64,000 bases of DNA. Origin: an uncultured virus (IMG/VR IMGVR_UViG_3300020213_000017). Its lineage: Duplodnaviria > Heunggongvirae > Uroviricota > Caudoviricetes. The position numbers were made by a program, and so were the translations under genes. The notes below the pieces were generated by a model. It ran no database searches. It was not told the DNA's origin and was given only the letters and a program-made list of their open reading frames with translations. The stretch is from IMG/VR virus record IMGVR_UViG_3300020213_000017; one strand, written 5' to 3'. This document shows, piece after piece, positions 45,467-62,058 of this stretch (positions within the stretch are counted from its first letter, which is position 1; each line of letters opens with the position of its first letter).

Positions 45467-45905
45467 ATTGATATTGTAGCACTTTTCTGGAAAAATTTTA
45501 AAAAAATTTTAGAGGTCTTTTTGACAAAAATTATCAGGAAATTTTGGTTTGTGTCTGAGCATATACCTCAGGGGTTGACCAAACTATATACACCAATCAC
45601 GGGAAACACGTTTTCCCTCAATATTTCGCATAGTTGCACAGATACATGTCAGAGATATAACAGGTGTAGCTGTCAGGATACACCTATCTCCTCACTGAGG
45701 CATTTACACTAAACATTAGACACCTTGCATTGTCGTAGGCTATTTGCTATACATACCGCATAGTTACCTTGACCAAACTATTGACAGTCTCCTCTATGAT
45801 ACCTTGTGGGCTTTCATCCTATATATGTGACTAGGTGACTAGGTGTCTACTGTATAGGTGCCTTGTGCCTTGTAGTGTCTACTGTATAGGTGTCTTGTAC
45901 TGTAT

Positions 45906-46032
45906 AGGTGTCTGCTGAATTATTCAATGATATCAGGTACTGTCTAAAAGTTCTACACTATCGTTTTTCGGTGCCTTAATGTTATCACGTAGTTATGTTT
46001 GGCATTGTCAATGCATTGTATAGTTAAGAGGT
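45906..46032 (+). promoter_or_regulatory. Sigma54-type promoter cassette copy 1
   Basis: TGTCTAAAAGTTCTACA at 45941-57; IHF-like TATCACGTAGTTA; GG 46001-2 / GC 46013-14 (N10); AAGAGG SD. Confidence 0.75.
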
Positions 46033-46036
46033 AACT

Positions 46037-46186
46037 ATGAAGCTTTTAGTTTTCGTTTTTGGCAATAACTTAGACTCACGAACCATAAGCGTTAAAGGCA
46101 GTACTATGCGGAATGCAATGCATGGCGCAGCAATGAGCCTAAAAGTAAAAGAATGCAATTTGATATTTTTATCGGTAAAGGAATAA
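46037..46186 (+). CDS. Small hypothetical protein (49 aa)
   Basis: Below the track cutoff; MKLLVFVFGNN... follows the cassette SD. Confidence 0.6.
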   Translation: MKLLVFVFGNNLDSRTISVKGSTMRNAMHGAAMSLKVKECNLIFLSVKE

Positions 46187-46187
46187 T

Positions 46188-46409
46188 ATGAATAATCCAC
46201 TAACGCCTTTTTTTGTAAACCTTCCATCAAAGGCCGTGCGCAAAACTATAGATACATGGGAGTTACATGTTGACTATGGGCAAGGTTATGAACACGAATT
46301 GACGGAAGAATCCAGACAAGAAGCCAATACAAGGCTTAAGGAATACCGTGTGAATTGCCCACAATATCCTGCAAAGATCATAAAGCGTAGAGAAAGAAAG
46401 CCTGTTTAA
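46188..46409 (+). CDS. Hypothetical phage early protein
   Basis: AAGGA SD; YGQGYE...A...LKEYR.N pattern. Confidence 0.7.
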   Translation: MNNPLTPFFVNLPSKAVRKTIDTWELHVDYGQGYEHELTEESRQEANTRLKEYRVNCPQYPAKIIKRRERKPV

Positions 46410-46500
46410 AGCTTGGTCAGGTAAAGCCTGTTTAAAGCTTGGTCAGGTAAAGCCTGTTTAAAGCTTGGTCAGGTGAAGCCTGTTTAAAGCTTGGTCAGGT
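46397..46500. repeat. 26-bp tandem repeat x4
   Basis: AAAGCCTGTTTAAAGCTTGGTCAGGT at 46397, 46423, 46449 and 46475 (one mismatch in the last). Confidence 0.95.
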
Positions 46501-46707
46501 GAGATGCGCGGGGCACAAAACGGCCTTATATTGCTATTTTTTGGCCATAACGATTATATAAGACTTGAGCTTATGGCAAAGTTTATGCCAATTGACCACG
46601 TAGCTATTATCTCAGCATTATCATATGGTTACGTGATTTTGCTTTACTTGACTTATATAGTGGCCATTAGCAAGATGCGCGATATCAGGCCGCTTCTTGT
46701 CGCGTAA

Positions 46708-46890
46708 CCTATTCCTTATTCCTTATTCCTATTCCCTATTCCCTATCCCTATTCCTTATTCCTTGTTCCCTATTCCTTATTCCTTGTTCCCTATGCCTTA
46801 TGCCTTATTCCCTTCCTATCCCGTGCTTATAGCTAATATCTTGTACCTTATGCCCTGTTCCTTGTGCCTATAGCTAATACCTTGTACCTT
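46708..46890. repeat. Pyrimidine-rich ~7-bp degenerate tandem repeat
   Basis: CCTTATT/CCCTATT/CCTTGTT units. Confidence 0.85.
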
Positions 46891-46900
46891 AGAAGTGTCT

Positions 46901-47030
46901 AGGTGACTACTGAATTATTCAATGATATCGGGTACTGACCAAAAGTTCTACATTGTCGTTTTTTAGGTGCCTTAATGATATCACATAGTTATGTTTGGCA
47001 TTGTCAATGCACTACATAGTTAAGAGGTGA
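46901..47030 (+). promoter_or_regulatory. Sigma54-type promoter cassette copy 2
   Basis: TGACCAAAAGTTCTACA at 46936-52; GG 46997-8 / GC 47009-10; GAGGTG SD. Confidence 0.75.
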
Positions 47031-47032
47031 CT

Positions 47033-47350
47033 ATGGAAAAACAGACTTTTAAACAATGGTTTGATAAGCATTTGATTGATTTTGCCGAAGATATCCGTAA
47101 TCATGGTTGTGAGGCAGGTTTTCCTAATATAACCTATACTGCTGATTGCGTAACTCTTTATGATCAATTTGAAGATGAAATATTTGAAGCCTTGAATTGT
47201 GATGCTTTTGACATGGGCTACGAATGCATAGATGAATTGACTGCTACTTTTGAGCGCAAGGATATGCTAAACGCTATTGATACGCGCAAGAACCTTCTTG
47301 TTTGGTATATGGCAGAAAGAGAAGCCCATGAGAGAGAGATTGATGAATAA
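47033..47350 (+). CDS. Acidic hypothetical phage early protein
   Basis: HGC..GF...TY..D....YD...DEI...N.LVW pattern; Asp/Glu-rich. Confidence 0.75.
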   Translation: MEKQTFKQWFDKHLIDFAEDIRNHGCEAGFPNITYTADCVTLYDQFEDEIFEALNCDAFDMGYECIDELTATFERKDMLNAIDTRKNLLVWYMAEREAHEREIDE

Positions 47351-47585
47351 GCAAGAAGCAATCAAGGCAGCAAAAAGGAAACTGAAGATGACAAAACGCG
47401 AAGCAATCAAAAAGGCAAAAAGCAGATTAAAAGTGTCTGGAATTCCTGGCATCTGGAATTTTTGGCTACTAGAGGATGGAACTTTACACCGAGAATACCA
47501 ATGTGGGCAAGGCGCATGGTTTTTGTTGGAAAAGGACGATAGCGGAAAAATCTATGAGCTAGACCAAGATGGATGTGGAAAATGA
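47343..47585 (+). CDS. Hypothetical protein with duplicated basic N-terminal helix
   Basis: MNKQEAIKAAKRKLK / MTKREAIKKAKSRLK. Confidence 0.55.
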   Translation: MNKQEAIKAAKRKLKMTKREAIKKAKSRLKVSGIPGIWNFWLLEDGTLHREYQCGQGAWFLLEKDDSGKIYELDQDGCGK

Positions 47586-48130
47586 AAATTCGTATGCTTA
47601 ACCGTATCAAAAAACAAATGGTTGCAATCAGTGCCGATAAAGAAAAGGAATTGATTAAATTAAAAGACAAGGCTATAAGGGTATTCAGTATGGAAATGAA
47701 AACCAAGAGAGCTATCATTGCCAAGATGGTAGAATCATTGGGCAATTCTAGAGAATTGACTACTGTACCGTACGATGATAGTTTCCATGCATGGATTAGG
47801 GTTGACCTTAGTCTATTGATTGATACAAAAGATAAATTAGAGCGCGAATTGCTGAAAGAATACTTTGATTTAGAATTTATCGGTATTGATTTTGAAAATG
47901 ACTGCATCACTACATCCGAAGGGCCTTGCATTGTGATTAATCATGAAGGTGATGTATTAGACCAAGACAGTAATAAATGGTTTATCTCCAAGCGTGATTA
48001 CGAGACTGTAGAAAGCCGAAATAAGCTTATCGAAGCCTACATGGAAAAGTCAGGTTACTTTCCATCTATAGTTAAATGTGATTATTACGGTAATCCTTCT
48101 TATGCTAATCCTTCTTATGCTAGTGTATAG
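47582..48130 (+). CDS. Hypothetical protein
   Basis: ATGA coupling; 3' end carries a 15-bp duplication (NPSYA x2). Confidence 0.7.
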   Translation: MKIRMLNRIKKQMVAISADKEKELIKLKDKAIRVFSMEMKTKRAIIAKMVESLGNSRELTTVPYDDSFHAWIRVDLSLLIDTKDKLERELLKEYFDLEFIGIDFENDCITTSEGPCIVINHEGDVLDQDSNKWFISKRDYETVESRNKLIEAYMEKSGYFPSIVKCDYYGNPSYANPSYASV

Positions 48131-48254
48131 GTGACTACTGAATTATTCAATGATATCGGGTACTGACCAAAAGTTCTACAAAAGTGTTTTTTAGCATCTA
48201 ATGATATCAACAACTTAGCATTGGCATTGTCAATGCATTGTATAGTAAAGAGGT
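48129..48254 (+). promoter_or_regulatory. Sigma54-type promoter cassette copy 3
   Basis: 17-mer at 48164-80; exact IHF consensus TATCAACAACTTA at 48205-17; GG 48223-4 / GC 48235-6. Confidence 0.78.
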
Positions 48255-48260
48255 AACAGT

Positions 48261-48587
48261 ATGAATAAGAAAATGCCCGAAACACGTCTTTCCCGCCTTT
48301 GTGCCCTTCACTCGCAGCAGGGAGGAACCATTTTTGAATTCGAGCGCCACTATAGTAAAATTCTTGACCTTTCCGATGAAGCTTTTGAGCGTCGTTTCGG
48401 CAAAGGCCCTAAACAATGGGTTTTCAATTGGGTAAATGGTGGATATAATGCCGTTATGGCTTCTACCAAGCGCGAGGCCTTGGAAATAGCCCATTTAATA
48501 TGCGATCTTGTCCCTTCTCCCGATACTTTCCGCGTAGTAGAAAGCGATGAAATGAATAGAATCGACGCCATGAATAACCAGGATTGA
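48261..48587 (+). CDS. Hypothetical protein
   Basis: Follows the cassette SD. Confidence 0.7.
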   Translation: MNKKMPETRLSRLCALHSQQGGTIFEFERHYSKILDLSDEAFERRFGKGPKQWVFNWVNGGYNAVMASTKREALEIAHLICDLVPSPDTFRVVESDEMNRIDAMNNQD

Positions 48588-48597
48588 AAAGGTGACT

Positions 48598-49305
48598 ATG
48601 GAAAAGCAAATTTTAGATAACATCCTTAAACTACATGCTATGTTTTTAAAAGATGAAGAAACTGGGGAAAGGGCAAACCTGTCTTGGGCAAACCTGATTG
48701 GGGCTGACCTGACTGGGGCAAACCTGACTGGGGCAAACCTGTTCGGGGCAATCCTGACTAGGGCAAACCTGTCTAGGGCAAGCCTGTCTGAGGCTTTCCT
48801 GACTGGGGCAAACCTATTCGGGGCAAACCTTCTTGGGGCAAACCTGTCTAAGGCAAACCTGTCTAAGGCAAACCTGACTGGGGCTGACCTGTCTCAGGCA
48901 AACCTGACCGGGGCAAACCTGTTCAAGGCTGACCTGTCTGGGGCTTTCCTGTTCAAGGCTGACCTGTCTGGGGCTGACCTGACTGGGGCAAACCTTCGCG
49001 GGGCAAACCTGTCTGGGGCAAACCTGTCTAAGACCTACCTTGCTGGGGCAAACCTGACTAGGGCAAACCTGTATTGGGCAAAACTGTCTAAGGCAAAACT
49101 GTCTAAGGCAAACCTGACTGGGGCAAACCTGTCTGGGGCAAACCTGTCTGGGGCAAACCTGACTGGGGCAAACCTGTATTGGGCAAAACTGTCTAAGGCA
49201 AAACTGTCTAAGGCAAACCTGTCTAAGGCAAACCTGTTCGGGGCTGACCTGTCTGAGGCTGACCTACGCGGGGCAAAACTGTCTGATACTATTTTGGCCG
49301 AATAA
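48598..49305 (+). CDS. Pentapeptide repeat protein 1 (42 pentads)
   Basis: A(N/D)Lxx repeats after the [13 protein letters not shown] cap. Confidence 0.92.
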   Translation: MEKQILDNILKLHAMFLKDEETGERANLSWANLIGADLTGANLTGANLFGAILTRANLSRASLSEAFLTGANLFGANLLGANLSKANLSKANLTGADLSQANLTGANLFKADLSGAFLFKADLSGADLTGANLRGANLSGANLSKTYLAGANLTRANLYWAKLSKAKLSKANLTGANLSGANLSGANLTGANLYWAKLSKAKLSKANLSKANLFGADLSEADLRGAKLSDTILAE

Positions 49306-49311
49306 CTGTCT

Positions 49312-49424
49312 AGGTGTCTACTGAATAATCTAGTGATATCAGGTACTGTCTAAAAGTTCTACAAAAGTGTTTTTTAGTGCCTTAGTGTTATCAACAACTT
49401 AGCATTGGCACTGTCAATGCATTA
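49312..49424 (+). promoter_or_regulatory. Sigma54-type promoter cassette copy 4
   Basis: 17-mer at 49347-63; IHF consensus at 49389-401; GG 49407-8 / GC 49419-20. Confidence 0.78.
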
Positions 49425-49471
49425 CGTACTGTATGAAAGTCTTTGAAGTTATCAATTATTGAGGAGATATC

Positions 49472-49663
49472 ATGTATAAAGTAAAGTTTATGAAGTATAT
49501 CGTAAAAGGTCCACTAAAAGGCATTGCAATTGATACAGTTTTGACTTTTGCCACGTTAAGCGCTGCAATGGATTATATGGGCTTCTTGATGAAACATACC
49601 AAAAAGCCTGTTAGCGCAATTGGTAATGGTGATTATACATGCCACGTAATTAGGATGGAATAG
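49472..49663 (+). CDS. Hypothetical protein
   Basis: GAGGAG SD. Confidence 0.65.
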   Translation: MYKVKFMKYIVKGPLKGIAIDTVLTFATLSAAMDYMGFLMKHTKKPVSAIGNGDYTCHVIRME

Positions 49664-49670
49664 AGGAAAT

Positions 49671-49892
49671 ATGAGAAAAACATATTGGATACGCAAATGC
49701 TATGCCTATAAGCAAGCAATTGATTCTGTGAAAACTTCAAGCTTGAAAGAGGCGCATAGGCTAGCCCTACAAGCAAGCAATGAAAGCGATGTTACTATAA
49801 GCTATCTTTTGACTAATGATATCTATGGCGAAATTTTTGTCGATACCTACAGGCATGGGATAGCGGCAAGCCTTTTCCATACACAATTTTAG
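49671..49892 (+). CDS. Hypothetical protein
   Basis: GAGGA SD. Confidence 0.65.
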   Translation: MRKTYWIRKCYAYKQAIDSVKTSSLKEAHRLALQASNESDVTISYLLTNDIYGEIFVDTYRHGIAASLFHTQF

Positions 49893-49901
49893 GAGTTAAA
49901 T

Positions 49902-50279
49902 ATGCTTAATAAAGAAGCTTTTATATACGAAATGGTTCAACACTATATTGTGTGCGCTTTATGGTCCAGCCTTGATGAATCAAATGAGTCAGGCGGGGTA
50001 CCTCTTGAAAGAAATTACGACGCTGACGATATCGCGCCTGAATCCTATGCCAAGGCGCTAAAAGATTGTGAACAGTTCGTAGAACAGAATGCTGCACTAT
50101 TAGAGGGATTGTGCGCCGATCAAACGGGCCATGATTTTTGGTTAACTCGTAATCGGCATGGAGTAGGCTTTTGGGATAGGGGCCTTGGCGACATTGGGGA
50201 CAAACTAACCGACGCTTGCAAAAAGTTTGGAGAACAGCACGCCATTGTCGGCGGCGATGGGCAAATTTATTTAGAATAA
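49902..50279 (+). CDS. Conserved phage early protein of unknown function
   Basis: ALWSS and GHDFWLTRNRHGVGFWDR motif, recalled from many phage hypothetical proteins; AGGAG SD. Confidence 0.75.
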   Translation: MLNKEAFIYEMVQHYIVCALWSSLDESNESGGVPLERNYDADDIAPESYAKALKDCEQFVEQNAALLEGLCADQTGHDFWLTRNRHGVGFWDRGLGDIGDKLTDACKKFGEQHAIVGGDGQIYLE

Positions 50280-50295
50280 CATTTAGGAGTTAAAT

Positions 50296-50490
50296 ATGCA
50301 ATTAAATAGAGCAATGAGAAGAATTGAGCACAATGGAATGACAGTTTCGTTGGTTGCTGTATACGATTATGAACAAGATCATGCAGGTTATGAGGTGACC
50401 AAAACATTGGAAGGTCAGATACTTCACCGCGAAACCATTGACAGTTTCGATAGTGCTGTAGAAACTATAAGACTTTGGCCATGGAAATAG
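50296..50490 (+). CDS. Hypothetical protein
   Basis: Same TTTAGGAGTTAAATATG leader as 49902. Confidence 0.65.
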   Translation: MQLNRAMRRIEHNGMTVSLVAVYDYEQDHAGYEVTKTLEGQILHRETIDSFDSAVETIRLWPWK

Positions 50491-50540
50491 GCGCATACGA
50501 TCAATTGAAAAATGGTAATGATATTGTGGCATAACTGTAT

Positions 50541-50652
50541 AGGTGACTACTGAATTATTCAATGATATCAGGTACTGTCTAAAAGTTCTACAAAAGTGTT
50601 TTTTAGCATCTAGTAATATCACGTAGTTATGTTTGGCATTGTCAATGCATTA
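50541..50652 (+). promoter_or_regulatory. Sigma54-type promoter cassette copy 5
   Basis: 17-mer at 50576-92; GG 50635-6 / GC 50647-8. Confidence 0.75.
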
Positions 50653-50659
50653 CTACTAA

Positions 50660-50800
50660 TAAGTGATTGGCAAGGATACGCAGCGGATAAGTCAGACGAA
50701 TATCGGTTAACTAGAAGCTGTAAATAGGGGCCAAGGGCAAGCGGGCGAAGTCGCCGAACTAATTCGGAATACTACTAGCAGTAACCGCGCAGCTAGACTT
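50660..50800 (+). ncRNA. Candidate structured ncRNA or long leader
   Basis: Starts at the predicted +1 of cassette 5; GC-richer than flanks, no plausible ORF, several short helices. Confidence 0.35.
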
Positions 50801-50812
50801 TTAAGGGGATAT

Positions 50813-51025
50813 ATGAACAAAATAGAGCAAAGCAAAACAGAAATACTCAGAGCATTTGCCAAACGTGTGCCGAATGCTCAAAGCATGGCCATAGATTATG
50901 GCCGTGATACTTTGACAGTATGGTTCGATGGTATTCATTCCAAGGAATACAAAGCAAGCACTATCCTTGATGCATTGGTTCAAGGCGCTTTGAAACAAGG
51001 CTTTGAAGTTGTATGGAAGGGCTAA
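50813..51025 (+). CDS. Hypothetical protein
   Basis: AAGGGG SD. Confidence 0.65.
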   Translation: MNKIEQSKTEILRAFAKRVPNAQSMAIDYGRDTLTVWFDGIHSKEYKASTILDALVQGALKQGFEVVWKG

Positions 51026-51444
51026 ACTATGAACAAGAAAACATTGTTTTACATGGGAGAATAATTATGCTTAAGTGTGATATGTTTAAGGATTGCAAGG
51101 CTACTGTCAGCTATATTGACACAAAAGGTTATTTATATTGCGCAATTCATGGCGTTATGCGTAAACACCATGTTTCTTGTCGCAAGCTAAAGTCAAAGGA
51201 AATTGAGCGTTTGCGGGAAGGGCTACCTTTGCTAACCAAAACGCAATTAAAGTTTGATAATATCCTTGACCTTTGCGCTGAAAGTGAAATTGAGATTGTA
51301 TCTCATGGCTTAGCGCCTAATCCTAATGGGTTCTGCTATGAGAGAGGTGAAAAGACAACTGAAAAGCAATGCGCCAAGCTTGAAGTTCTTTTGAACGCCT
51401 TAACATTATATGAACAAATGGAATTCATCAAACAGACCTTTTGA
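51013..51444 (+). CDS. Hypothetical protein with Cys/His cluster
   Basis: C....C...YC..H motif; start uncertain. Confidence 0.6.
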   Translation: MEGLNYEQENIVLHGRIIMLKCDMFKDCKATVSYIDTKGYLYCAIHGVMRKHHVSCRKLKSKEIERLREGLPLLTKTQLKFDNILDLCAESEIEIVSHGLAPNPNGFCYERGEKTTEKQCAKLEVLLNALTLYEQMEFIKQTF

Positions 51445-51491
51445 TAGTTAACTAATCTAATTGATCTTATTATTTTAATAAAGAGGTAAAT

Positions 51492-51725
51492 ATGAAAACT
51501 GAAGCCAAAATACAATGCTATAAGATGACTTTTGAAGCAATCCAAAGTGTGCGGAAAGAACTAGCACAATGCAATCAAAACGACACTAGGGAAATGAGTG
51601 AAATAATGCTGCGCCTTGCTAGTCTTTATGAGTCAATCGATGCCCTTCGTTTCGTGGAATGCATGGTCGAACTAGAGCAAAACAATAGCAATATTCTAAA
51701 AGTGAATTTTAGCAAAGCTGCTTAA
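51492..51725 (+). CDS. Hypothetical protein
   Basis: AAGAGGT SD. Confidence 0.65.
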   Translation: MKTEAKIQCYKMTFEAIQSVRKELAQCNQNDTREMSEIMLRLASLYESIDALRFVECMVELEQNNSNILKVNFSKAA

Positions 51726-51744
51726 CTTAATTAAAAGGAAATAT

Positions 51745-52194
51745 ATGAAAACTATACAAGAATTAGCCGCTGATTATTTGAAACAATTTGAGCATAAAAA
51801 ACGCATTAATGGCGCTAGTTTCTATTCTTTAAAAGATAGCGCGCCTAAAGAATTAAAAGAATTGGTTCAGGCGGCTCACGAGGGAATGTCTCCCGATGAC
51901 TATAAATATGAATATGCTCTAGATGCCCTGTATATGCTATCTGAGTCAGAAAACGATGGTATGGAAAACAGAATAAATGAAATTGAAGCAGATAGCTATA
52001 CAAGTGATCTTTTAGCATGGGTATCAAGTAATCTTGAGCGTTTGGGCTACGTCGATGAGCAAGCCCGAGAACTGGGCCATAGTGCCATTGGCGCAGCAGG
52101 TGATTTGATGCAAGGTCAAGTTTACGAGCGCGTAAAAATTGCAAACAGTGTTTTTGACTCTATGCGTGAAATTATGGATGAGATGGGGGCATAA
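51745..52194 (+). CDS. Putative Ocr-like (T7 gp0.3-like) DNA-mimic protein
   Basis: Acidic helical protein. INEIEADSYTSDLLAWV...LMQGQVYE resembles, from memory, the Ocr IH..AD....YY.DI....ILQARIYE pattern. Confidence 0.45.
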   Translation: MKTIQELAADYLKQFEHKKRINGASFYSLKDSAPKELKELVQAAHEGMSPDDYKYEYALDALYMLSESENDGMENRINEIEADSYTSDLLAWVSSNLERLGYVDEQARELGHSAIGAAGDLMQGQVYERVKIANSVFDSMREIMDEMGA

Positions 52195-52580
52195 TGCTAA
52201 CTATTGACTCAATTGCAGGTAGTTATGAATTTTCGGATATCCATGGCGTTTTCAAAGCTTTTAAAGGCGCTGTATATGTCAAACTGATTACTGGAAATAC
52301 GGCAGAATTGCTAGATATGGATGCAATTTCAGTACGCTTGCGTTTCAACAATATAACACATTCTAATCATGATTCTATAGTTTTGATAGACCTTGACGAA
52401 TTTAGAAATTACTGGGCAATGACTGATGCAAAAAATGAACCAACGATAAAACCTCAAAGCCTTTGCGATTGTGGCGGATACAAAACAGGTTTTAAAGATT
52501 ATACAAGGCAGCATTCGCAGTGGTGCAAGGTTTACCGTTACACTGGCTACATTGACAAAACCATACCCAAAAAACAATAA
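52194..52580 (+). CDS. Hypothetical protein with C-terminal CxCG...HS.WC motif
   Basis: TAATG coupling; CDCGG...HSQWC. Confidence 0.65.
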   Translation: MLTIDSIAGSYEFSDIHGVFKAFKGAVYVKLITGNTAELLDMDAISVRLRFNNITHSNHDSIVLIDLDEFRNYWAMTDAKNEPTIKPQSLCDCGGYKTGFKDYTRQHSQWCKVYRYTGYIDKTIPKKQ

Positions 52581-52680
52581 GAGTGGCATGATTGTTGCAA
52601 AAGCAAAATTGTCGTACCTTCAAGCCTAATCACTTGGCTTGAAGTATTCATTAGAACAGGGCCAGTGGTCAGGTATTGTA

Positions 52681-52776
52681 CGATTGTCTAAAAGTTCTAC
52701 AAAAGTGTTTTTTAGCATCTAATGTTATCACGTAGTTATGTTTGGCACCGTCAATGCATTGTATAGTTAAGAGGTG
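52681..52776 (+). promoter_or_regulatory. Sigma54-type promoter cassette copy 6
   Basis: 17-mer at 52685-701; TTTGGCACCGTCAATGCA with GG 52744-5 / GC 52756-7. Confidence 0.78.
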
Positions 52777-52779
52777 ACT

Positions 52780-53415
52780 ATGAAAAAGCAAATTTTAGAT
52801 AACATCCTTAAACTACACGCTATGTTTTTAAAAGGTGAAAAGGCTGGGGAAAGGGCAAACCTGACCGGGGCAAACCTTTACGGGGCTGACCTGGCTTTAG
52901 CAAACCTATCTGGGGCAAACCTGACTGGGGCTATCCTGTTCGGGGCTGACCTGACTAAGGCTGACCTGTCTGGGGCTTTCCTGTTCAAGGCTGACCTGGC
53001 TTTAGCAAACCTGTCTGGGGCAAACCTATTCGGGGCTGACCTGGCCAGGGCAAACCTGACTGGGGCTTTCCTGACTGGGGCAAACCTTGCTGGGGCAAAC
53101 CTGATTAGGGCTGACCTGTCTGGGGTTGACCTGTCTGAGGCTGACCTGTTTGGGGCTGACCTGACCAAGGCAAACCTGTCTGGGGCAAACCTACGCGGGG
53201 CAAACCTGGCTAAGGCTGACCTGTTCGAGGCAAACCTGTCTCAGGCAAGCCTGTCTGGGGCAAACCTACGCGGGGCTGACCTGACTTGGGCCGTCCTGTT
53301 TGGGGCTGACCTGACCAAGGCAAACTTGATCGGGGCTGACCTGTTCGGGACAAACCTTCGCGGGGCAAACCTGACTGATACTATCCTGACTGATACTATC
53401 CTGGCCGATAAGTAA
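52780..53415 (+). CDS. Pentapeptide repeat protein 2 (37 pentads)
   Basis: Same caps and repeat units as the other paralogs. Confidence 0.92.
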   Translation: MKKQILDNILKLHAMFLKGEKAGERANLTGANLYGADLALANLSGANLTGAILFGADLTKADLSGAFLFKADLALANLSGANLFGADLARANLTGAFLTGANLAGANLIRADLSGVDLSEADLFGADLTKANLSGANLRGANLAKADLFEANLSQASLSGANLRGADLTWAVLFGADLTKANLIGADLFGTNLRGANLTDTILTDTILADK

Positions 53416-53430
53416 ATTTAGGGAGCGAAT

Positions 53431-53817
53431 ATGATTAGGTTTTTAGATTGTGTGACAGTGTATCGCGTGGAAAAAAACGGGCTAGGGCCGTATTGTGGGA
53501 GTTTCCCTATCGTAGGGCATGGGGTATCCGAATGGACAACTAGGACGCACAGCTTTGAAACGGGCTGTCCTGGGCCTTATGATGATGGGCTAAATAAGCA
53601 TTTGGAATCACGTCTTGGAAATGATCCCTACCATGTTTTTGGCTTTATTTCTCTTGAGCAATTTGCAAAATGGTTTAATTCTAAAGAACTGTACAATTTA
53701 ACAGATCTTGGCTTTAGGCTTAGTGTGTATCATGCAAGCAATGTTATAACGTCAGACTTTCAATGTATTTTTTTTAAACATGAAGCCGTTTTAGAAAAAG
53801 AATGTAACTTAATTTAA
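53431..53817 (+). CDS. Conserved phage hypothetical protein
   Basis: VYRVE...GPY...FGF.S.EQ...WF pattern; GGGAG SD. Confidence 0.7.
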   Translation: MIRFLDCVTVYRVEKNGLGPYCGSFPIVGHGVSEWTTRTHSFETGCPGPYDDGLNKHLESRLGNDPYHVFGFISLEQFAKWFNSKELYNLTDLGFRLSVYHASNVITSDFQCIFFKHEAVLEKECNLI

Positions 53818-53829
53818 CAAAGGGGCATT

Positions 53830-54048
53830 ATGCTGTCAAAATATGAACTCTCATGCGGATACTTGCAAGAAAAAGAAAAAAAGGGTTACAGGGTAACGCT
53901 TTGGATGGAGCATGATTGCTATCATGTTAGAACGTATAACCACAAAAATGGTGTTAGAGTTGCTTGGGATTGCGCTGATACCTTCATTGACGCTAAAAAG
54001 TTATACAAAAGGCACTGTTTAGGCATTGAACAATTGACCAAACAATAA
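53830..54048 (+). CDS. Hypothetical protein
   Basis: AAGGGG SD. Confidence 0.65.
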   Translation: MLSKYELSCGYLQEKEKKGYRVTLWMEHDCYHVRTYNHKNGVRVAWDCADTFIDAKKLYKRHCLGIEQLTKQ

Positions 54049-54060
54049 TCGGTATTGAAG

Positions 54061-54126
54061 TTTAGCATCTAATGATATCACGTAGTTATGTTTGGCACCG
54101 TCAATGCATTGTATAGTAAAGAGGTG
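54061..54126 (+). promoter_or_regulatory. Sigma54-type promoter cassette copy 7 (5'-truncated)
   Basis: IHF-like site plus GG 54094-5 / GC 54106-7; only a TGACCAAA half-site upstream. Confidence 0.72.
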
Positions 54127-54129
54127 ACT

Positions 54130-54939
54130 ATGAATAAGCAAATTTTAGATAACATCCTTAAACTACACGCTATATTTTTAAAAGGTGGAGAAAGTGGCGA
54201 AAGGGCAAACCTGTCTGGGGTTGACCTACGCGGGGCAAACCTGGCTAAGGTTGACCTGACTTTAGCAAACCTGACTGGGGCAAACCTGTCTGAGGCAAAT
54301 ATGTCTTGGACTGACCTGTCTCAGGCAAACCTGACTGGGGTTGACCTACGCGGGGCAAACCTGTCTGGGACCTACCTTCTTGGGGCAAACCTGTCTAGGG
54401 CTTTCCTGGCTAAAGCAAAACTGTCTCAGGCAAACCTGTTCGAGGCAAACCTGACCAAGGCTGACCTGTCTGAGGCAAACCTGTCTGGGGCAAGCCTGTC
54501 TGGGGCAAACCTGACTAGGGCAAACCTGACTAAGGCAAACCTGGCCAAGGCAAACCTGACTAGGGCAAACCTGACTAGGGCTGACCTGTCTTGGACAAAC
54601 CTGACTGGGGCTGACCTGTCTGGGGCTATCCTGTCTGGGGCTATCCTGTCTGGGGCTGACCTGTCTGGGGCTATCCTGTCTGGGGCTGACCTGTCTGGGG
54701 CTGACTTGTCTGGTACTATTTTGGCCGATAAGGAAATTTTAAGTTTTCAGTTTGAAAAACACACTGCTTATTTTTTCGGATTAAATGAAATTGCTATAGG
54801 CTGTCACAAAAATACTATTTCTTTTTGGCTTGAAAACTTTAAAGAAATAGGCAGAGAAGAAGGTTATACAGAAAAACAAGTTGAAATGTATGGTAATTTC
54901 ATTAAAACCTGTGCAGATATTTTTAAAAAGCAAATTTGA
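54130..54939 (+). CDS. Pentapeptide repeat protein 3 (35 pentads) with a ~69-aa C-terminal domain
   Basis: True start at 54130 after GAGGTG; C-terminal ...IAIGCHKNTISFW... extension. Confidence 0.92.
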   Translation: MNKQILDNILKLHAIFLKGGESGERANLSGVDLRGANLAKVDLTLANLTGANLSEANMSWTDLSQANLTGVDLRGANLSGTYLLGANLSRAFLAKAKLSQANLFEANLTKADLSEANLSGASLSGANLTRANLTKANLAKANLTRANLTRADLSWTNLTGADLSGAILSGAILSGADLSGAILSGADLSGADLSGTILADKEILSFQFEKHTAYFFGLNEIAIGCHKNTISFWLENFKEIGREEGYTEKQVEMYGNFIKTCADIFKKQI

Positions 54940-54948
54940 GGTGAATGT

Positions 54949-55137
54949 ATGAAGACCGTTAAAACTATAAAATTGAATTTGACAGTTAAAGAGGTGAGTT
55001 TGCTATTAAAAGCCTTGCCCTATGTTGGTGATAGAGAAATAGAAGAAGAAGTTGATTTTGATGAACGCATGGGGCATAAATGCGATACTCTGACAGATAA
55101 AATAGAAAAACAATTGAACAAACAAAAACAAAATTAG
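54949..55137 (+). CDS. Hypothetical protein
   Basis: GAGGTG SD. Confidence 0.65.
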   Translation: MKTVKTIKLNLTVKEVSLLLKALPYVGDREIEEEVDFDERMGHKCDTLTDKIEKQLNKQKQN

Positions 55138-55143
55138 GTGAAT

Positions 55144-55656
55144 ATGGAAAAGCAAATTTTAGATAACATCCTTAAGCTGCATGCTATATTTTTAAAAGAT
55201 GAAAAGGCTGGGGAAAGGGCAAACCTGACTGAGGCAAACCTGTCTGAGGCTGACCTTCGTGGGGCAAACCTGTCTGAGGCTGACCTGACTAGGGCAAACC
55301 TGACTGGGGCAAACCTGTTCGGGGCAAGCCTGTTCGGGGCTTTCCTGACTGGGGCAAGCCTGTTCGGGGCAAACCTGTCTAAGGCAAACCTGACTGGGGC
55401 TGACCTGTCTGAGGCTGACCTGTCTGAGGCTGACCTGTCTGGGGTTGACCTTTCTAGGGCAAGCCTTTACGGGGCTGACCTGACTAGGGCTGACCTTTCT
55501 AGGGCAAGCCTTTACGGGTCTGACCTGACCAGGGCTGACCTGACCAAAGCAAACCTGTCTTGGGCTGACCTGTCTGGGGCAAGCCTGTCTAAGGCTGACC
55601 TGTCTGGGGCAAGCCTGTCTGGTACTATTTTGGCCGATAAGGCTAAGATCGAATAA
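55144..55656 (+). CDS. Pentapeptide repeat protein 4 (28 pentads)
   Basis: Same caps and repeat units. Confidence 0.92.
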   Translation: MEKQILDNILKLHAIFLKDEKAGERANLTEANLSEADLRGANLSEADLTRANLTGANLFGASLFGAFLTGASLFGANLSKANLTGADLSEADLSEADLSGVDLSRASLYGADLTRADLSRASLYGSDLTRADLTKANLSWADLSGASLSKADLSGASLSGTILADKAKIE

Positions 55657-55664
55657 GCATTGTA

Positions 55665-55773
55665 CGATTGACCAAAAGTTCTACAGGATTGAAGCCTTGA
55701 TGAAATTGGTTAACTTAATGAAATTAGGCTTTTAACTTTTGGCATAACCAGTGCATTATACTTAATAAGAGGT
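55665..55773 (+). promoter_or_regulatory. Sigma54-type promoter cassette copy 8 (diverged)
   Basis: TGACCAAAAGTTCTACA at 55669-85; TTGGCATAACCAGTGCA with GG 55741-2 / GC 55753-4. Confidence 0.7.
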
Positions 55774-55778
55774 GATAA

Positions 55779-56756
55779 ATGAAACGATTGATTAAATTCC
55801 ATAGTCCTTATGAATCTGACGGTGCAAAGTTCTCTTCTTGTTCTACCAAGTTTGAAGTTCTGCCCGAATTGGTTGATGATAGCGCAGGTCTACCCGAGCT
55901 AAAAGCGTTGGCGGAAAAGCTTGGCCTACGCGTTGGCGAAAAAGCGTTAACCTTTGAGGTTAAGGAATATTCCAAACATACACAGGTAACCCATGCTATG
56001 GATATGGTGGAAAAGATCGTGAAACCTAAAATGTTTTGCGGCGATAAGCAAGAGTTTTCTACGGTTTATATCGGCTTTGTAACCCTTCAGGATAAGGGCA
56101 CGCTTAAGCCTACCAATAAGATCGTCAAGCGCATCACTAAAGATCAAGCGCAAGAAATTATTAACAATGGAGAATATGGCATTTCGCAAGTAGGCGAACA
56201 CGCTCAAGAGGACAAAAATGTTCTAGTTAAGGAAGGCTGGAATTATTACAGTGTTATGCGCTTGCTTGGGTATCACCATGAGCAATTCGAGGAAGTTGCA
56301 AATGTAGAGGACTATGGTTTTGAGGACGATACCACAAGATGCGATGAATGCGGAATGTTGGATAGCAATGATGATGGCTATGTCTACAATTTCAGGCATG
56401 TTGAAGACCTCGGAATGTTGGGCACTAATTGTGGATGCTTTGACGAACACTGCAAATTAAACTTTGCCGATACCTACGCTAACAATCCTAAACAGGCAAT
56501 TGAACGCGCTGCCGCTACCGATTTGGAAAACGAGGGCAAGATTGAACGCCTTGAAACTTTCATTGGCGGCATGGTAGACGGTAGAGGGGGGTACTTTGAA
56601 GGCAAGCCTACGCGGGAAGGTACACCAGAAGCAATTTTGCGGGAATATCAAGAGAAGATGCCTGAAAAAACTTTCATGTTTATTCATGAAGAAAGCGGAC
56701 AATTTCAGCAATACTTTTCTATCGCTGAAATTATGCCTGAAAAAAAGGCGGCCTAG
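55779..56756 (+). CDS. Hypothetical acidic protein with CxxC...CxC cluster
   Basis: 325-aa ORF with GAGGTG SD. Confidence 0.8.
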   Translation: MKRLIKFHSPYESDGAKFSSCSTKFEVLPELVDDSAGLPELKALAEKLGLRVGEKALTFEVKEYSKHTQVTHAMDMVEKIVKPKMFCGDKQEFSTVYIGFVTLQDKGTLKPTNKIVKRITKDQAQEIINNGEYGISQVGEHAQEDKNVLVKEGWNYYSVMRLLGYHHEQFEEVANVEDYGFEDDTTRCDECGMLDSNDDGYVYNFRHVEDLGMLGTNCGCFDEHCKLNFADTYANNPKQAIERAAATDLENEGKIERLETFIGGMVDGRGGYFEGKPTREGTPEAILREYQEKMPEKTFMFIHEESGQFQQYFSIAEIMPEKKAA

Positions 56757-56786
56757 CACAATAATGATTTTTAGGAGAAAGAAGCT

Positions 56787-57365
56787 ATGAAACAATTCAC
56801 ACTAGAAGACTTGCGCGCACTAAAGCCTTGTCACGATCCGGTCAAATATTTGCCGGAAAACTGGACCGGTAACGCGCTGGATATTTTAAATGTAAAAGAA
56901 TGTCCTTTTCCTGACCGGCTCTGGCTCTTAATGCACCAGGAGTTTTTCTCTGAGAAGTTTATGCGCCTTTATGCAGTAGGGTGCGCGAGACAAGTGCAGC
57001 ATCTAATGCATGACGAACGAAGTATAAAGGCGCTTGACGTAGCAGAAGCCTACGCAAATGGAAACGCAACTAATGCCGAATTGGATGCTGCGAGGGATTC
57101 TGCGAGGGCTGCTTTGTGGAATACTGCGATGAAGGTGAGTTCTGCGGTGTGGGATGCTGAGTTTGCTGCTGCGAGGGCTGCCGTGTGGGCTGTTGTGTGG
57201 GTTGCGAGTGATATTCGTGCTGCTGCGAATGATGCTGCGAGGGCTGCCGCGAGGATTGTTGCGAGTGATATTCGTGGTGCTGCGTGGGATTCTGCGTGGG
57301 ACGCACAAGAGATCAAGTTACGCGAAATGATTATAACTGGAATCGAAACGAAGGACGTGCGATGA
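56787..57365 (+). CDS. Phage protein with AAW/AAR low-complexity repeats
   Basis: RLYAV.CARQV.HL..DERS..ALDVAE.YANG.AT..EL.AA followed by Ala-rich repeats. Confidence 0.75.
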   Translation: MKQFTLEDLRALKPCHDPVKYLPENWTGNALDILNVKECPFPDRLWLLMHQEFFSEKFMRLYAVGCARQVQHLMHDERSIKALDVAEAYANGNATNAELDAARDSARAALWNTAMKVSSAVWDAEFAAARAAVWAVVWVASDIRAAANDAARAAARIVASDIRGAAWDSAWDAQEIKLREMIITGIETKDVR

Positions 57366-57676
57366 AAAAATCAGAACTTGACGGTATATGTATGGGAATA
57401 GCAGTAGTAACCGTAGTGGCAGCGGGTATGGCGTGGGGCGCTGCGTGGGTGGCGCATAAAGAGGTGAGAGAATGGGAAAGGGCGGCGGTGATAGATAAAG
57501 CTAAGTGGAAGGAAATGTGCAATGAAAAAGCTGGAGATAAAAACATTCAAGCACGCGACGTAATAGCAGCGGCAAAGGCGTGGGGCGCTGCGAGAGATGC
57601 CGCTAAGGCTGCTCGTGATGCTGCTTTGGTAAAAGCGTTGGATAGGGCTTTGAAGGGGAAAAATGAACACTTCTAA
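57362..57676 (+). CDS. Hypothetical Ala-rich protein
   Basis: ATGA coupling; AAW/AARDAA motifs. Confidence 0.55.
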   Translation: MKKSELDGICMGIAVVTVVAAGMAWGAAWVAHKEVREWERAAVIDKAKWKEMCNEKAGDKNIQARDVIAAAKAWGAARDAAKAARDAALVKALDRALKGKNEHF

Positions 57677-57911
57677 GACTAATGAGGCGACAAGCGTAAA
57701 AGTACGATTGAATAAAAATGATACATGGCGAATCCATCTTGAGACAGAGCAAGAGTTAAAAGATTGCTACTATTTTAATGAAGAAGATATCGCGGAATGC
57801 TGCATCGAAGTCAGTCAGGAATTGATAGAAAATTACAATAGGGCAGAGGAGGAATTTAAGAAACTGCAAGATGTTTTGTGGGCAATGTATGAGAAAAAGA
57901 ACAAGTATTAA
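57663..57911 (+). CDS. Hypothetical acidic protein
   Basis: AAGGGG SD. Confidence 0.6.
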   Translation: MNTSKTNEATSVKVRLNKNDTWRIHLETEQELKDCYYFNEEDIAECCIEVSQELIENYNRAEEEFKKLQDVLWAMYEKKNKY

Positions 57912-57945
57912 AAGTAATTCTTAACAATTAATTAAAGGGAAATAT

Positions 57946-58617
57946 ATGAAACTAATCTATGTAGCAATTGCAATTTGGGCCAGTATCGCGTTTACAGGAT
58001 GTGGCAAAAGAACTAAAACCGTAGTGGTAAAAGACACGGTAACAGTAACCGAACCTTGTGAAAATGTACAAAACCTTGTGGATGTGGAAAATAAATACCG
58101 ATTAAGCCAAGGGAAAAATGCGCTATCTTCTGGACTTAGCTGTTCTGTAAGGGAAGTTGCTAGCGGACAATGGCTGTCTAGTTCTAGCCCTGGATACAAT
58201 GCTGGGCAGGGTGTATTGGTATTGACTGGTACTAAGTATGCCTTTCTTAACAAAAGTGGATTTAATCAACCTAGCGTAGCAGGAGGACAACCCAATAACA
58301 TTTTGCCCACGTCTATTCAATCGCTGTTCCTTAACAAAAACTATAAAATCACTTGCACTGGCTTTATTGTTATTGAGCGTGATGGCCATACAGGCTTTAG
58401 CATGGCAAGTGATGATGGTTCTATCCTTAGTGTTGATGGTACTAAACTGATCAACAATGATGGCAACCATGGCATTGTAACCAAAAGTGGGTCGAAGAGT
58501 ATGCGAAGAGGCGTAAAAAAATTCAGCATAGCCTATGCTCAAAGTGGTCATGGGCCTTTTGCTCTAATCCTAAACATGGATGGAAATATTGCGCCTGGTG
58601 CCTTGTTTTATCACTAA
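57946..58617 (+). CDS. Lipoprotein with PA14-like domain
   Basis: FTGC lipobox; ASDDGS.L.VDG..LINNDG.HG PA14 signature. Confidence 0.75.
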   Translation: MKLIYVAIAIWASIAFTGCGKRTKTVVVKDTVTVTEPCENVQNLVDVENKYRLSQGKNALSSGLSCSVREVASGQWLSSSSPGYNAGQGVLVLTGTKYAFLNKSGFNQPSVAGGQPNNILPTSIQSLFLNKNYKITCTGFIVIERDGHTGFSMASDDGSILSVDGTKLINNDGNHGIVTKSGSKSMRRGVKKFSIAYAQSGHGPFALILNMDGNIAPGALFYH

Positions 58618-58645
58618 TCAAATACAATACTTAGGAGTGAATTTT

Positions 58646-58951
58646 ATGAAAAAGTGGAATGATTTAACTAGCGATCAACAGATACAAGCTGTAAAGCGTA
58701 ACTTAAAGAATGCAGTGCTGAATTTGATTGATGGCAATCTAAAGCTTGACGGCAAGCGGCAAGCAGTGCTTGATAGTATGGTTGAGCATTCCACTTCAAT
58801 TGAATCTGCTACTAAGCGCATTATGCTTAGTCCTATAGGTAAAGAGCTACGATCCATGGCTACCATAGCCTCTGAGGATGCAATTTACAATGAGTTTGGA
58901 ATGCAAATAACAGAAGATAGCTTTGATGAAAACTTCCCTATGTTCGTATAG
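58646..58951 (+). CDS. Hypothetical protein
   Basis: AGGAG SD before MKKW. Confidence 0.6.
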   Translation: MKKWNDLTSDQQIQAVKRNLKNAVLNLIDGNLKLDGKRQAVLDSMVEHSTSIESATKRIMLSPIGKELRSMATIASEDAIYNEFGMQITEDSFDENFPMFV

Positions 58952-58969
58952 CAAAGGCCAAGAAATAGG

Positions 58970-59050
58970 CGATTGATCAAAAGATACTCGATTTAAAAAC
59001 AGGCCCTCTTAATGAAATTAAGTAGTTGAGAGTGGCACTAATCCTGCAAT
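58970..59050 (+). promoter_or_regulatory. Sigma54-type promoter copy 9 (most diverged)
   Basis: TGGCACTAATCCTGCA with GG 59034-5 / GC 59046-7; IHF-like AATTAAGTAGTTG; degenerate TGATCAAAA upstream. Confidence 0.6.
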
Positions 59051-59059
59051 ACTCCATAT

Positions 59060-59398: not shown

Positions 59399-59426
59399 AG
59401 CGAATGTATATTGACAATACGTCTAT

Positions 59427-60068: not shown

Positions 60069-60354
60069 GCTTTTTCTGTGCCTGGCTATGATAGGAGTGT
60101 TTTTTCTGATAATATGGTGGACAGTAATTGGTGGCATTGTAATGGCCTACCTGGATTTTAAAAAAGGGGAATAGTATGTTAAAAAAGATAAAAGTAAAAG
60201 TGGTTTTGAGGCTGGAAGTTAAAACTGATTCCGATGATAAGGAAATGATGGATCGTGATGTTCTAGAAGCTGCTAAAGAAGAGCTTGAAGCCCTGGATGA
60301 CGAACCTGAAAGCCTTGACTACGAAATGGAAGAAGAAGCTGACGAGGAATATTA

Positions 60355-61454: not shown

Positions 61455-61467
61455 AAAAATTTAAGAG

Positions 61468-62055: not shown

Positions 62056-62058
62056 GAG

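What the first reader, a model, noticed from the sequence alone, without database searches (positions are those of the whole stretch)
45906..59050. Phage early region driven by ~9 copies of a complete sigma54 promoter cassette (enhancer + IHF + -24/-12 + SD)
Seen: a ~100-130 bp element recurs near 45.9, 46.9, 48.1, 49.3, 50.5, 52.7, 54.1, 55.7 and 59.0 kb. Every copy has TGGCA..TGCA with exact GG-N10-GC spacing, including the diverged copies whose spacer differs. Just upstream is a WATCAANNNNTTR-type site (exact in copies 3 and 4). Further upstream (about -85 to -69 in copies 1-6) is a conserved 17-mer TG(T/A)C(T/C)AAAAGTTCTACA. In several copies the predicted +1 falls at the SD. Established: this order is the architecture of RpoN promoters activated by an AAA+ enhancer-binding protein through IHF looping, whereas characterised phage early promoters mostly use sigma70 or a phage RNAP. 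Inference: the phage ties its first-expressed genes to one host enhancer-binding protein, and so to a particular host state. This points to a sigma54-rich diderm host (for example Bdellovibrionota, Myxococcota or Desulfobacterota).
Basis: partly seen in the sequence, partly recalled or inferred. Interest (0 to 1): 0.88.

Follow-up and report, generated by a model that had tools for sequence, protein, structure and literature searches.

The report
Enhancer-type promoters drive phage early genes
An uncultured large phage appears to switch on its first block of small genes from nine copies of a sigma-54 promoter that fires only when a host activator protein binds just upstream, and the same switch recurs in many unrelated phages and in chromosomes of predatory Bdellovibrio-like bacteria, their probable hosts.

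Summary
The repeat is real. Ten TGGCA-N7-TGCA boxes lie on the coding strand of the small-gene arm (12 in the window; shuffles 0.86). Nine have an IHF-type site 4-5 nt upstream. Seven have an exact 17-bp TGT-N11-ACA-type site, six of them 41-43 nt upstream. The same geometry, with unrelated spacer DNA, recurs in 72 non-redundant sites, including podovirus-like phages that share almost no proteins with this myovirus. The cultured relative Myxococcus phage Mx1 has 14 sigma-70 promoters in the matching arm instead. The 96%-complete near-identical record encodes no RpoN, activator or IHF. The cassette also heads chromosomal genes in Bdellovibrionota (9 of 301 genomes, 4 preselected; Acidobacteriota 1 of 301). 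Best reading: host-activator-dependent sigma-54 early promoters (0.8) in a phage of predatory bacteria (0.65). Candidate activator: a conserved Bdellovibrionota protein whose DNA-binding helix four related phages copy as a stand-alone gene (0.35). No transcript data exist here. Two cultured Bdellovibrio phages and 2 of 6 further relatives lack the cassette. Sigma-54 promoters are known in the late module of phage YuA, and this scan noted similar cassettes on other DNA before.

The parts
45140..45900 (.). Long, mostly non-coding gap where gene direction diverges, with short tandem repeats; the small-gene arm starts to its right
   Evidence: ORF calls; repeats
45941..46036 (+). Cassette 1: 17-mer 45941-45957, IHF-type site 45983-45995, sigma-54 box 46000-46015, predicted +1 46026, ATG 46037
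46574..46590 (.). Isolated element with GG-N10-GC spacing on both strands; partner sites not examined
   Evidence: sequence
46936..47032 (+). Cassette 2: 17-mer 46936-46952, IHF 46979-46991, box 46996-47011, ATG 47033
48164..48260 (+). Cassette 3: 17-mer 48164-48180, exact IHF 48205-48217, box 48222-48237, ATG 48261
49347..49471 (+). Cassette 4: 17-mer 49347-49363, exact IHF 49389-49401, box 49406-49421, ATG 49472
50576..50812 (+). Cassette 5: 17-mer 50576-50592, IHF 50617-50629, box 50634-50649, 153-nt leader to ATG 50813
   Evidence: leader folds no better than shuffles (z 0.74); no Rfam hit
52584..52599 (+).
52685..52779 (+). Cassette 6: 17-mer 52685-52701, IHF 52726-52738, box 52743-52758, ATG 52780 (pentapeptide-repeat gene)
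53991..54129 (+). Cassette 7: near-match 17-mer 53991-54007 at gap 85 (inside the upstream ORF), IHF 54076-54088, box 54093-54108, ATG 54130 (pentapeptide-repeat gene)
55669..55778 (+). Cassette 8 (diverged): exact 17-mer 55669-55685 at gap 54, IHF-like 55722-55734, box 55740-55755, ATG 55779
58974..59074 (+). Cassette 9 (diverged): degenerate 17-mer 58974-58990, IHF-like 59016-59028, box 59033-59048, ATG 59075
46037..63717 (+). Arm of small, co-directional, mostly unknown genes served by the cassettes (median 101 aa vs 166 aa elsewhere in G001), including seven pentapeptide-repeat genes; inferred early region
   Evidence: position matches the small-gene arm of Mx1

Best explanation
The cassettes are host sigma-54 (RpoN) promoters that drive the phage's small-gene, probably early, arm. 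Shown in sequence: box, IHF-type site and a near-palindromic TGT-N11-ACA site in fixed order and spacing; co-direction with the genes; SD and start codon close behind; no phage RpoN, AAA+ activator or IHF. Inferred steps: host RpoN-polymerase docks on the box. A host enhancer-binding protein (bEBP) binds the 17-mer centred near -77. IHF bends the DNA near -44, which would fold the activator back onto the -12 region about 33 bp on the other side (IHF kink positions recalled, not tested). ATP-driven melting then starts transcription about 12 nt after the GC. The host is probably in Bdellovibrionota (about 0.65). The activator is possibly the conserved Bdellovibrionota bEBP with the recognition helix GITIKTLYNKL (about 0.35), which is AAA-HTH only in the Bdellovibrio-type genome examined and GAF-AAA-HTH in two others. 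Stand-alone phage copies of this helix may act as shut-off repressors or competitors. Middle and late genes would then use the phage's own sigma-70-like factor.
For: (1) Spacing. In IMG/VR a 12-bp half-site plus box, allowed gaps of 25-50, returned 8 non-self loci on 6 contigs, all at gaps 41-43 and with no 25-mer shared with the window. Over gaps 38-77, 31 of 51 non-redundant strict hits fall at 39-44 (binomial p about 1e-13), with a small group at 53-55. (2) Unsearched features. Among 72 non-redundant near-class sites (viral plus metagenome scans), 55 have the left-half YG, against 3 of 16 far-class sites. 24 have an IHF site with at most 1 mismatch (shuffle mean 0.25, maximum 2), 17 of them at offset 4; 40 have SD plus start codon within 60 nt. 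(3) Promoter swap. The Mx1 arm has 14 sense and 0 antisense sigma-70 sites and no cassette; this arm has 3 sense and 6 antisense. (4) Breadth. Cassettes occur in G003 (4), G004 (6), G361 (7, one off-arm), G362 (2), G363 (1) and G364 (1). They also occur in G005 and G006, which share 7 and 0 proteins with G001 and carry podovirus-type gene sets. (5) No PF00158 or PF04552 in G001-G006, and no PF00216 in G001, G003 or G004. (6) Host. 7 of 56 GTDB hits are Bdellovibrionota. The fuller pattern hits 9 of 301 Bdellovibrionota (5 not preselected, 1 of those inside an ORF; control 0) against 1 of 301 Acidobacteriota. An orphan fliA-like gene carries the full cassette in two syntenic chromosomal loci, L226 with the exact phage 17-mer. 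The Bdellovibrionota genomes tested have RpoN, IHF/HU genes and many bEBPs. (7) Stand-alone Fis-type HTH genes with a VKT(I/V/L)YNKL-like helix occur in G004, G363, G360 (partial match) and L350. For the G004 protein, 3 of the 4 best matches among the bEBPs compared are the KTLYNKL family, found in most of the 38 of 61 genomes hit.
Against: No TSS, reporter or binding data. Copies 1-7 are duplicates. Cultured Bdellovibrio phages phi1422 and phi1402 lack the cassette. Relatives G360 (88% capsid identity) and G365 lack it, and the strict pattern hit only 2 of 10 family records. Most of the 56 GTDB hits are chance or phage-like contigs binned in other phyla. The bare half-site is only weakly enriched at Bdellovibrionota sigma-54 promoters: 51 vs 38 for a reversed half-site overall, 18 vs 5 at gaps 40-43, of which 5 of the 18 were preselected. 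Autoregulation test for the candidate activator was not significant (Mann-Whitney p 0.14, 32 vs 27 regions). The top single match of the G004 HTH was a different bEBP (L471), and G001, G003, G005 and G006 lack the HTH. ESM Atlas searches of two window proteins did not fix the host. The upstream site is closer than the 100-150 bp quoted as typical (PMC7057263).
Confidence: 0.8

Rival explanations
1. The boxes are silent docking or decoy sites. They trap RpoN-polymerase or the host activator, or act as roadblocks, while the arm is transcribed from other promoters.
For: Relatives carry bare boxes in both orientations near the arm origin (G004 58-59 kb, G005 36.1-36.3 kb). The window has a two-way element at 46574 and a bare box at 52584. 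G360 has bare boxes but no upstream site.
Against: All nine cassettes point into genes, most with SD and ATG just behind. The upstream site and IHF site keep fixed spacing across lineages. The arm lacks the sigma-70 series that Mx1 has.
Confidence: 0.08
2. A phage protein reads the cassette: the phage sigma-70-like factor, the Rrf2-family regulator (window 34563-34898), or an activator too diverged to detect.
For: G001 encodes a sigma-like protein (35% to the Mx1 one) and an Rrf2 protein. The record is 96% complete, so a gene could be missing.
Against: G006 shares no protein with G001 yet has the cassette. Mx1 has the sigma-like protein but no cassette. Rrf2 was found only in G001 and G003 of six records. 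PF00158 is absent from complete relatives. The same element heads host chromosomal genes.
Confidence: 0.06
3. Sigma-54 promoters as proposed, but the activator is PilR or the flagellar master bEBP, linking phage start-up to piliation or motility. This is a variant inside the best explanation.
For: The P. aeruginosa PilR consensus is TGT-N11-ACA (PMC8035640). An orphan fliA-like gene carries the cassette. Two flgF-type promoters have the right half-site at gap 50.
Against: At 10 Bdellovibrionota pilin genes with a sigma-54 box, the best match to the phage 17-mer had at least 5 mismatches, though one had TGT-N11-ACA at gap 44. flgB upstream regions show CGGCAA-type sites, judged by eye. Only 1 of 25 oriented main fliA loci had an intergenic box with a partial site.
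Confidence: 0.15
4. The element is a repressor operator (13-bp palindrome inside the box) or a divergent sigma-70 promoter, and the sigma-54 likeness is accidental.
For: Several copies have a perfect inner palindrome. A minus-strand TAGACA-16-AATAAT (10 of 12) overlaps the 17-mer in copies 1 and 5.
Against: The inner palindrome is kept in 0 of 72 outside sites while GG-N10-GC is kept. There is no correctly spaced sense sigma-70 pair at cassettes 1-8; a 9-of-12 match overlaps copy 9 only.
Confidence: 0.03

Closest known systems
Bacterial sigma-54 / bEBP / IHF promoters (NifA-nifH, PspF-pspA, XylR-Pu type; mechanism per PMC7057263 passages, examples partly recalled)
   Same: Order of upstream site, IHF site and -24/-12 box; TGT-Nn-ACA shape of the upstream site; need for an AAA+ activator
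   Different: Carried by lytic-type phages in up to nine copies; single upstream site at an almost fixed -77, closer than the 100-150 bp quoted as typical; activator not encoded nearby
Pseudomonas phage YuA sigma-54-like promoters (PMC10914365 passages; GenBank NC_010116 annotation)
   Same: A phage without its own polymerase uses -24/-12-type promoters
   Different: YuA's three annotated -24/-12 promoters in the first 50 kb lie in the structural module, with no matching upstream 17-mer; here they head the small-gene arm with a conserved enhancer and IHF site
Repeated strong sigma-70 early promoters of large myoviruses, seen here in Myxococcus phage Mx1 (OR576727.2)
   Same: A series of co-directional promoters spaced through an arm of small genes in a related genome (42 shared proteins)
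   Different: Promoter class is sigma-54 with enhancer rather than sigma-70
P. aeruginosa PilR site, TGT-N11-ACA (PMC8035640 passage)
   Same: Same 17-bp outer geometry
   Different: Bdellovibrionota pilin promoters carry different sites, so PilR is not supported as the activator
Bdellovibrio phage phi1422 gp46, annotated as a putative sigma-54-dependent regulator
   Same: Stand-alone Fis-type HTH like those in G004, G363 and L350 (44% to the G004 protein)
   Different: phi1422 has no cassette, and its helix matches the flagellar-type bEBP best

Membership tests
sigma-54 (RpoN) enhancer-dependent promoter | GG-N10-GC -24/-12 element in TGGCAC...TGC context | tested here: met
   10 boxes in the arm, 12 vs 0.86 expected in the window; kept in unrelated phages
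sigma-54 (RpoN) enhancer-dependent promoter | Upstream activator site with dyad symmetry | tested here: met
   17-mer at fixed spacing; left half co-conserved though unsearched, 55 of 72 vs 3 of 16; binding not shown
sigma-54 (RpoN) enhancer-dependent promoter | IHF site between enhancer and box (common, not obligatory) | tested here: met
   24 of 72 with at most 1 mismatch vs 0.25 shuffled, offset 4-5
sigma-54 (RpoN) enhancer-dependent promoter | Oriented upstream of a gene start | tested here: met
   SD plus ATG 11-16 nt after predicted +1 in 7 of 9 cassettes
sigma-54 (RpoN) enhancer-dependent promoter | Transcription starts about 12 nt after GC | not testable with these tools
   No RNA holder was listed
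sigma-54 (RpoN) enhancer-dependent promoter | Dependence on RpoN and an ATP-hydrolysing bEBP | not testable with these tools
   Needs a reporter or in vitro transcription
Phage with self-encoded sigma-54 activator | AAA+ sigma-54 interaction domain (PF00158) in the phage genome | tested here: not met
   0 of 6 records G001-G006
PilR regulon | Same site upstream of the host pilin gene | tested here: not met
   At least 5 mismatches at 10 pilin promoters with a box
Regulon of the Bdellovibrionota KTLYNKL-helix bEBP | Activator binds the 17-mer (proxy: sites upstream of its own gene) | tested here: inconclusive
   p 0.14 overall; 7 related genomes score 9.5-13.2, the others do not
sigma-70 early promoter series as in Mx1 | TTGACA-17-TATAAT-like sites in sense orientation through the arm | tested here: not met
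   3 sense vs 6 antisense here; 14 vs 0 in Mx1
Mx1-like large myoviruses | Shared structural and replication genes and gene order | tested here: met
   Baseplate protein 31% over 93%; capsid 54%, 42 shared proteins; no formal taxonomy test

The most novel reading that the evidence does not exclude
Several unrelated lineages of phages that infect predatory Bdellovibrionota have converged on one host sigma-54 enhancer circuit as the ignition for their early genes. Because IHF is mostly made in the growth phase inside prey, the phage would hold its programme until the non-replicating attack-phase predator has entered prey. Some of these phages later shut the circuit off with a stand-alone copy of the activator's DNA-binding helix. 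The phage-optimised 17-mer would also reveal an undescribed global regulon of predatory bacteria, candidate regulator Bd3063.
Probability: 0.3. Interest if true: 0.9.

Novelty: new variant of a known kind. Interest (0 to 1): 0.72.

Why it matters
Sigma-54 promoters are silent until an ATP-driven activator acts, which is an odd choice for genes a lytic phage needs first. If these cassettes work as read, phage start-up is gated by a host regulator, and the promoter class of an early region can be swapped within one phage family as it changes host. The conserved site gives a sequence tag for assigning uncultured phages to predatory bacteria. It also gives a ready probe for a sigma-54 regulon in Bdellovibrionota, for which my searches listed no study. 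The compact, rigid geometry is a natural test case for IHF-assisted activation.

Tried and rejected
No assembly is held for the window; the near-identical record G001 was used instead. No RNA holder was listed for 45800-52800, which is no evidence either way. No tRNA genes and no Rfam match in 45-60 kb. The copy-5 leader folds no better than shuffles. blastn of the cassette against cultured phages gave only 10 chance fragments. phi1422, phi1402 and the first 50 kb of YuA lack the cassette. PF00114 found pilins in only 1 of 41 genomes; PF14245 was used next. Flagellar-master and PilR identities were considered and not supported. Acidobacteriota as host was rejected: their hits match only the right half-site. 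The palindromic-operator reading was rejected. ESM Atlas taxa for the PA14 and Rrf2 proteins did not settle the host. The homologue search with the G004 HTH gave 10 similar short proteins without host information. My first flgB script missed most loci and was redone. Literature searches for phage sigma-54 early promoters and for Bdellovibrio sigma-54 or bEBP regulons listed nothing that describes this arrangement. The library holds only CC-licensed PMC papers and bioRxiv, and the original YuA paper was not read. No genome-wide comparison of sigma-54 promoters with attack- and growth-phase expression was made, so the host-state link rests on a few table rows.
Full report
Observation. The window is part of a large myovirus: baseplate, tail and nucleotide-metabolism genes on the minus strand, a mostly non-coding gap at about 45.1-45.9 kb, then an arm of small plus-strand genes. 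A record of 155,223 bp (G001, 96% complete) matches the window at 99.95-100% in two blocks. TGGCA-N7-TGCA occurs 12 times in the window against 0.86 expected, and ten of these lie on the coding strand of the arm. Nine have an IHF-type site ending 4-5 nt upstream. Seven have an exact 17-mer, six at a gap of 41-43 nt and one at 54. Copy 7 has a near match at 85, copy 9 a degenerate one at 42, and the box at 52584 is bare. Copies 1-7 are close duplicates, so they count as about one observation.

Independent test in other phages. I searched IMG/VR for the right part of the 17-mer plus the box with any gap from 25 to 50. Besides the window's own record, 8 loci on 6 contigs came back, all at gaps 41-43 and sharing no 25-mer with the window. 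Wider scans gave 51 non-redundant strict hits over gaps 38-77; 31 fall at 39-44 (p about 1e-13) and 4 at 53-55. The metagenome scan gave 90 stretches; among the 87 stored loci were 62 distinct non-self sites peaking at gap 42, most before small phage-like genes and a few inside ORFs. Pooled and thinned to 72 sites, features that were not in the pattern appear: YG at the left end in 55 (3 of 16 at far gaps), an IHF site with at most one mismatch in 24 (shuffle mean 0.25, maximum 2 in 500), 17 of them at offset 4, and SD plus start codon within 60 nt in 40 (4 of 16 at far gaps). The inner palindrome of the window copies is kept in 0 of 72.

Distribution. The closest cultured relative is Myxococcus phage Mx1 (42 shared proteins). 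Its small-gene arm sits in the matching position but has no cassette; it has 14 sense and 0 antisense sigma-70 sites, against 3 and 6 here. A capsid search found 62 related loci. Of 10 long records tested with a strict pattern, 2 matched. Six of those ten were then read in full with a matrix: G361, G362, G363 and G364 carry 7, 2, 1 and 1 cassettes, while G360 (88% capsid identity) and G365 carry none. G003 has 4 and G004 has 6. G005 and G006 share 7 and 0 proteins with G001, have podovirus-type gene sets, and each has one cassette at the head of a block of small genes. The cassette is therefore patchy within the family and shared across lineages, as expected for a host-determined element.

Who reads it. 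PF00158 and PF04552 are absent from G001-G006, and PF00216 from G001, G003 and G004. G001 does encode a weakly matching sigma-70-like protein, homologous to the Mx1 one, and an Rrf2 protein found in only 2 of 6 records. Neither tracks the cassette.

Host. A scan of 185,579 genomes gave 56 hits, most inside ORFs or on phage-like contigs binned in other phyla. Seven are Bdellovibrionota: five by record title and two by falling in that phylum. Several precede genes with signal-peptide-like starts. With the left half-site added, 9 of 301 Bdellovibrionota matched (control 0; 4 already known, 1 inside an ORF) against 1 of 301 Acidobacteriota. L226 has the exact phage 17-mer, an IHF-like site and the box before a second, orphan FliA/WhiG gene, and L314 has the same arrangement in the same gene order. 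One host gene kept a sigma-54 box within one mismatch in 22 of 30 homologous loci, and 4 of 29 had a strong upstream site (0.5% in shuffles; two of the four are the seed pair). Against this, the half-site alone is only weakly enriched over a reversed control (51 vs 38 in 201 genomes; 18 vs 5 at gaps 40-43), and Bdellovibrio phages phi1422 and phi1402 lack the cassette. I put Bdellovibrionota at about 0.65.

Activator. The shape equals the P. aeruginosa PilR consensus (PMC8035640, passages), but Bdellovibrionota pilin promoters carry other sites. The flagellar bEBP appears to use CGGCAA-type sites (by eye). G004 encodes a 65-aa stand-alone Fis-type HTH, with relatives in G363, G360 (partial match) and the cassette-bearing contig L350. 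Three of its four best matches among the bEBPs compared share the helix GITIKTLYNKL; the top match was another bEBP. That family is widespread in the phylum. It is AAA-HTH without a sensor domain in L476 and GAF-AAA-HTH in L467 and L473. By gene order and length (beside xerC, 352 aa) its counterpart in strain HD100 is probably Bd3063; the sequences were not compared. Sites upstream of its own gene are not enriched overall (p 0.14), though 7 related genomes have them. This is a lead at about 0.35.

Host state. From PMC3627812 I read passages, Table S2 in full and selected rows of Table S1; a .doc supplement could not be read. By eye, only 1 of 140 attack-phase promoters (Bd2462) looks sigma-54-like. 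Reading the columns as attack vs growth RPKM, rpoN is expressed in both phases (169 vs 271), IHF-alpha mostly in growth (48 vs 4283), and Bd3063 weakly in both (36 vs 61). This fits firing in the growth phase but does not show it.

Mechanism. Shown: the order, spacing, orientation and conservation of the three sites, and the lack of phage-encoded factors. From established knowledge (PMC7057263, passages): sigma-54 holoenzyme needs a bEBP, often brought in by IHF looping. Inferred: with the box T at -26, the IHF core spans -43 to -31 and the 17-mer is centred at -77. A U-turn near -44 (kink positions recalled) would place the activator opposite -12, which would explain the narrow 41-43 class and the one-turn class at 53-55.

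Relation to what is known. It works like a classical enhancer-dependent sigma-54 promoter and meets every sequence criterion; the functional criteria could not be tested. YuA has sigma-54-like promoters (PMC10914365, passages), annotated in its structural module. My searches (listings only, apart from the papers cited above and short term look-ups in PMC12622784, PMC12316311 and PMC13689555) listed no description of an enhancer-driven early region or of this regulon. Earlier notes of this scan report similar cassettes on other DNA. They are not independent support; one gave me the YuA lead.

Verdict. Real feature; new variant of a known kind; interest 0.72. What this analysis adds is the fixed cross-lineage geometry, the sigma-70 to sigma-54 swap against Mx1, the host chromosomal match and a testable activator candidate.

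Noticed in passing
window 48598, 52780, 54130, 55144, 61212, 61474, 62065: Seven pentapeptide-repeat genes share the same 13-residue N-terminus; G001 has at least ten matching that start. Two sit directly behind cassettes. A host gene behind the best palindromic site (L171) is also a pentapeptide protein.
   Followed up: partly
window 45919-45946 and 50554-50581, minus strand: A sigma-70-like TAGACA-16-AATAAT (10 of 12) overlaps the left half of the 17-mer and points away from the box; weaker versions occur in copies 2-4.
   Followed up: no
window 45843-45924, 46400-46510, 46708-46883: Three sets of short tandem repeats near the arm origin; the first contains the left half of the 17-mer. Possibly terminus or origin features.
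   Followed up: no
G004 about 58.1-59.2 kb (L249); G005 about 36.1-36.3 kb (L257): Clusters of bare sigma-54 boxes in both orientations at the origin of the small-gene arm.
   Followed up: no
L226 and L314: An orphan second FliA/WhiG sigma gene in Bdellovibrionota-type chromosomes is headed by the full cassette, a possible sigma-54 to sigma-28 cascade.
   Followed up: partly
L540 1465-1659 (G004), G363 157725-157898, L350 2487-2681, phi1422 gp46: Phage stand-alone Fis-type HTH proteins that copy bEBP recognition helices; 10 similar short proteins.
   Followed up: partly
L410-L438: Many Bdellovibrionota sigma-54 boxes precede genes for proteins with signal-peptide-like starts, hinting at a large sigma-54 secretome regulon.
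   Followed up: no
L145, L176, L184: In Bryobacterales and a Burkholderiaceae genome, the right half-site plus box lies between two bEBP-like genes, before a small STAS-like gene: a separate recurring module.
   Followed up: no
L293, L353: The right half-site plus box precedes an Flp-pilin-like gene in two metagenome contigs.
   Followed up: no
window 39399-41025, minus strand: The ribonucleotide reductase large subunit appears split into 411-aa and 115-aa ORFs.
   Followed up: no
Mx1 87.5-114.5 kb (L127, L128): Most of the 14 sigma-70 sites in the Mx1 arm contain a GATC-bearing spacer.
   Followed up: no
window 34563-34898 and 57946-58617: Phage-encoded Rrf2-family regulator and a PA14-domain protein with a lipoprotein-like start.
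   Followed up: partly
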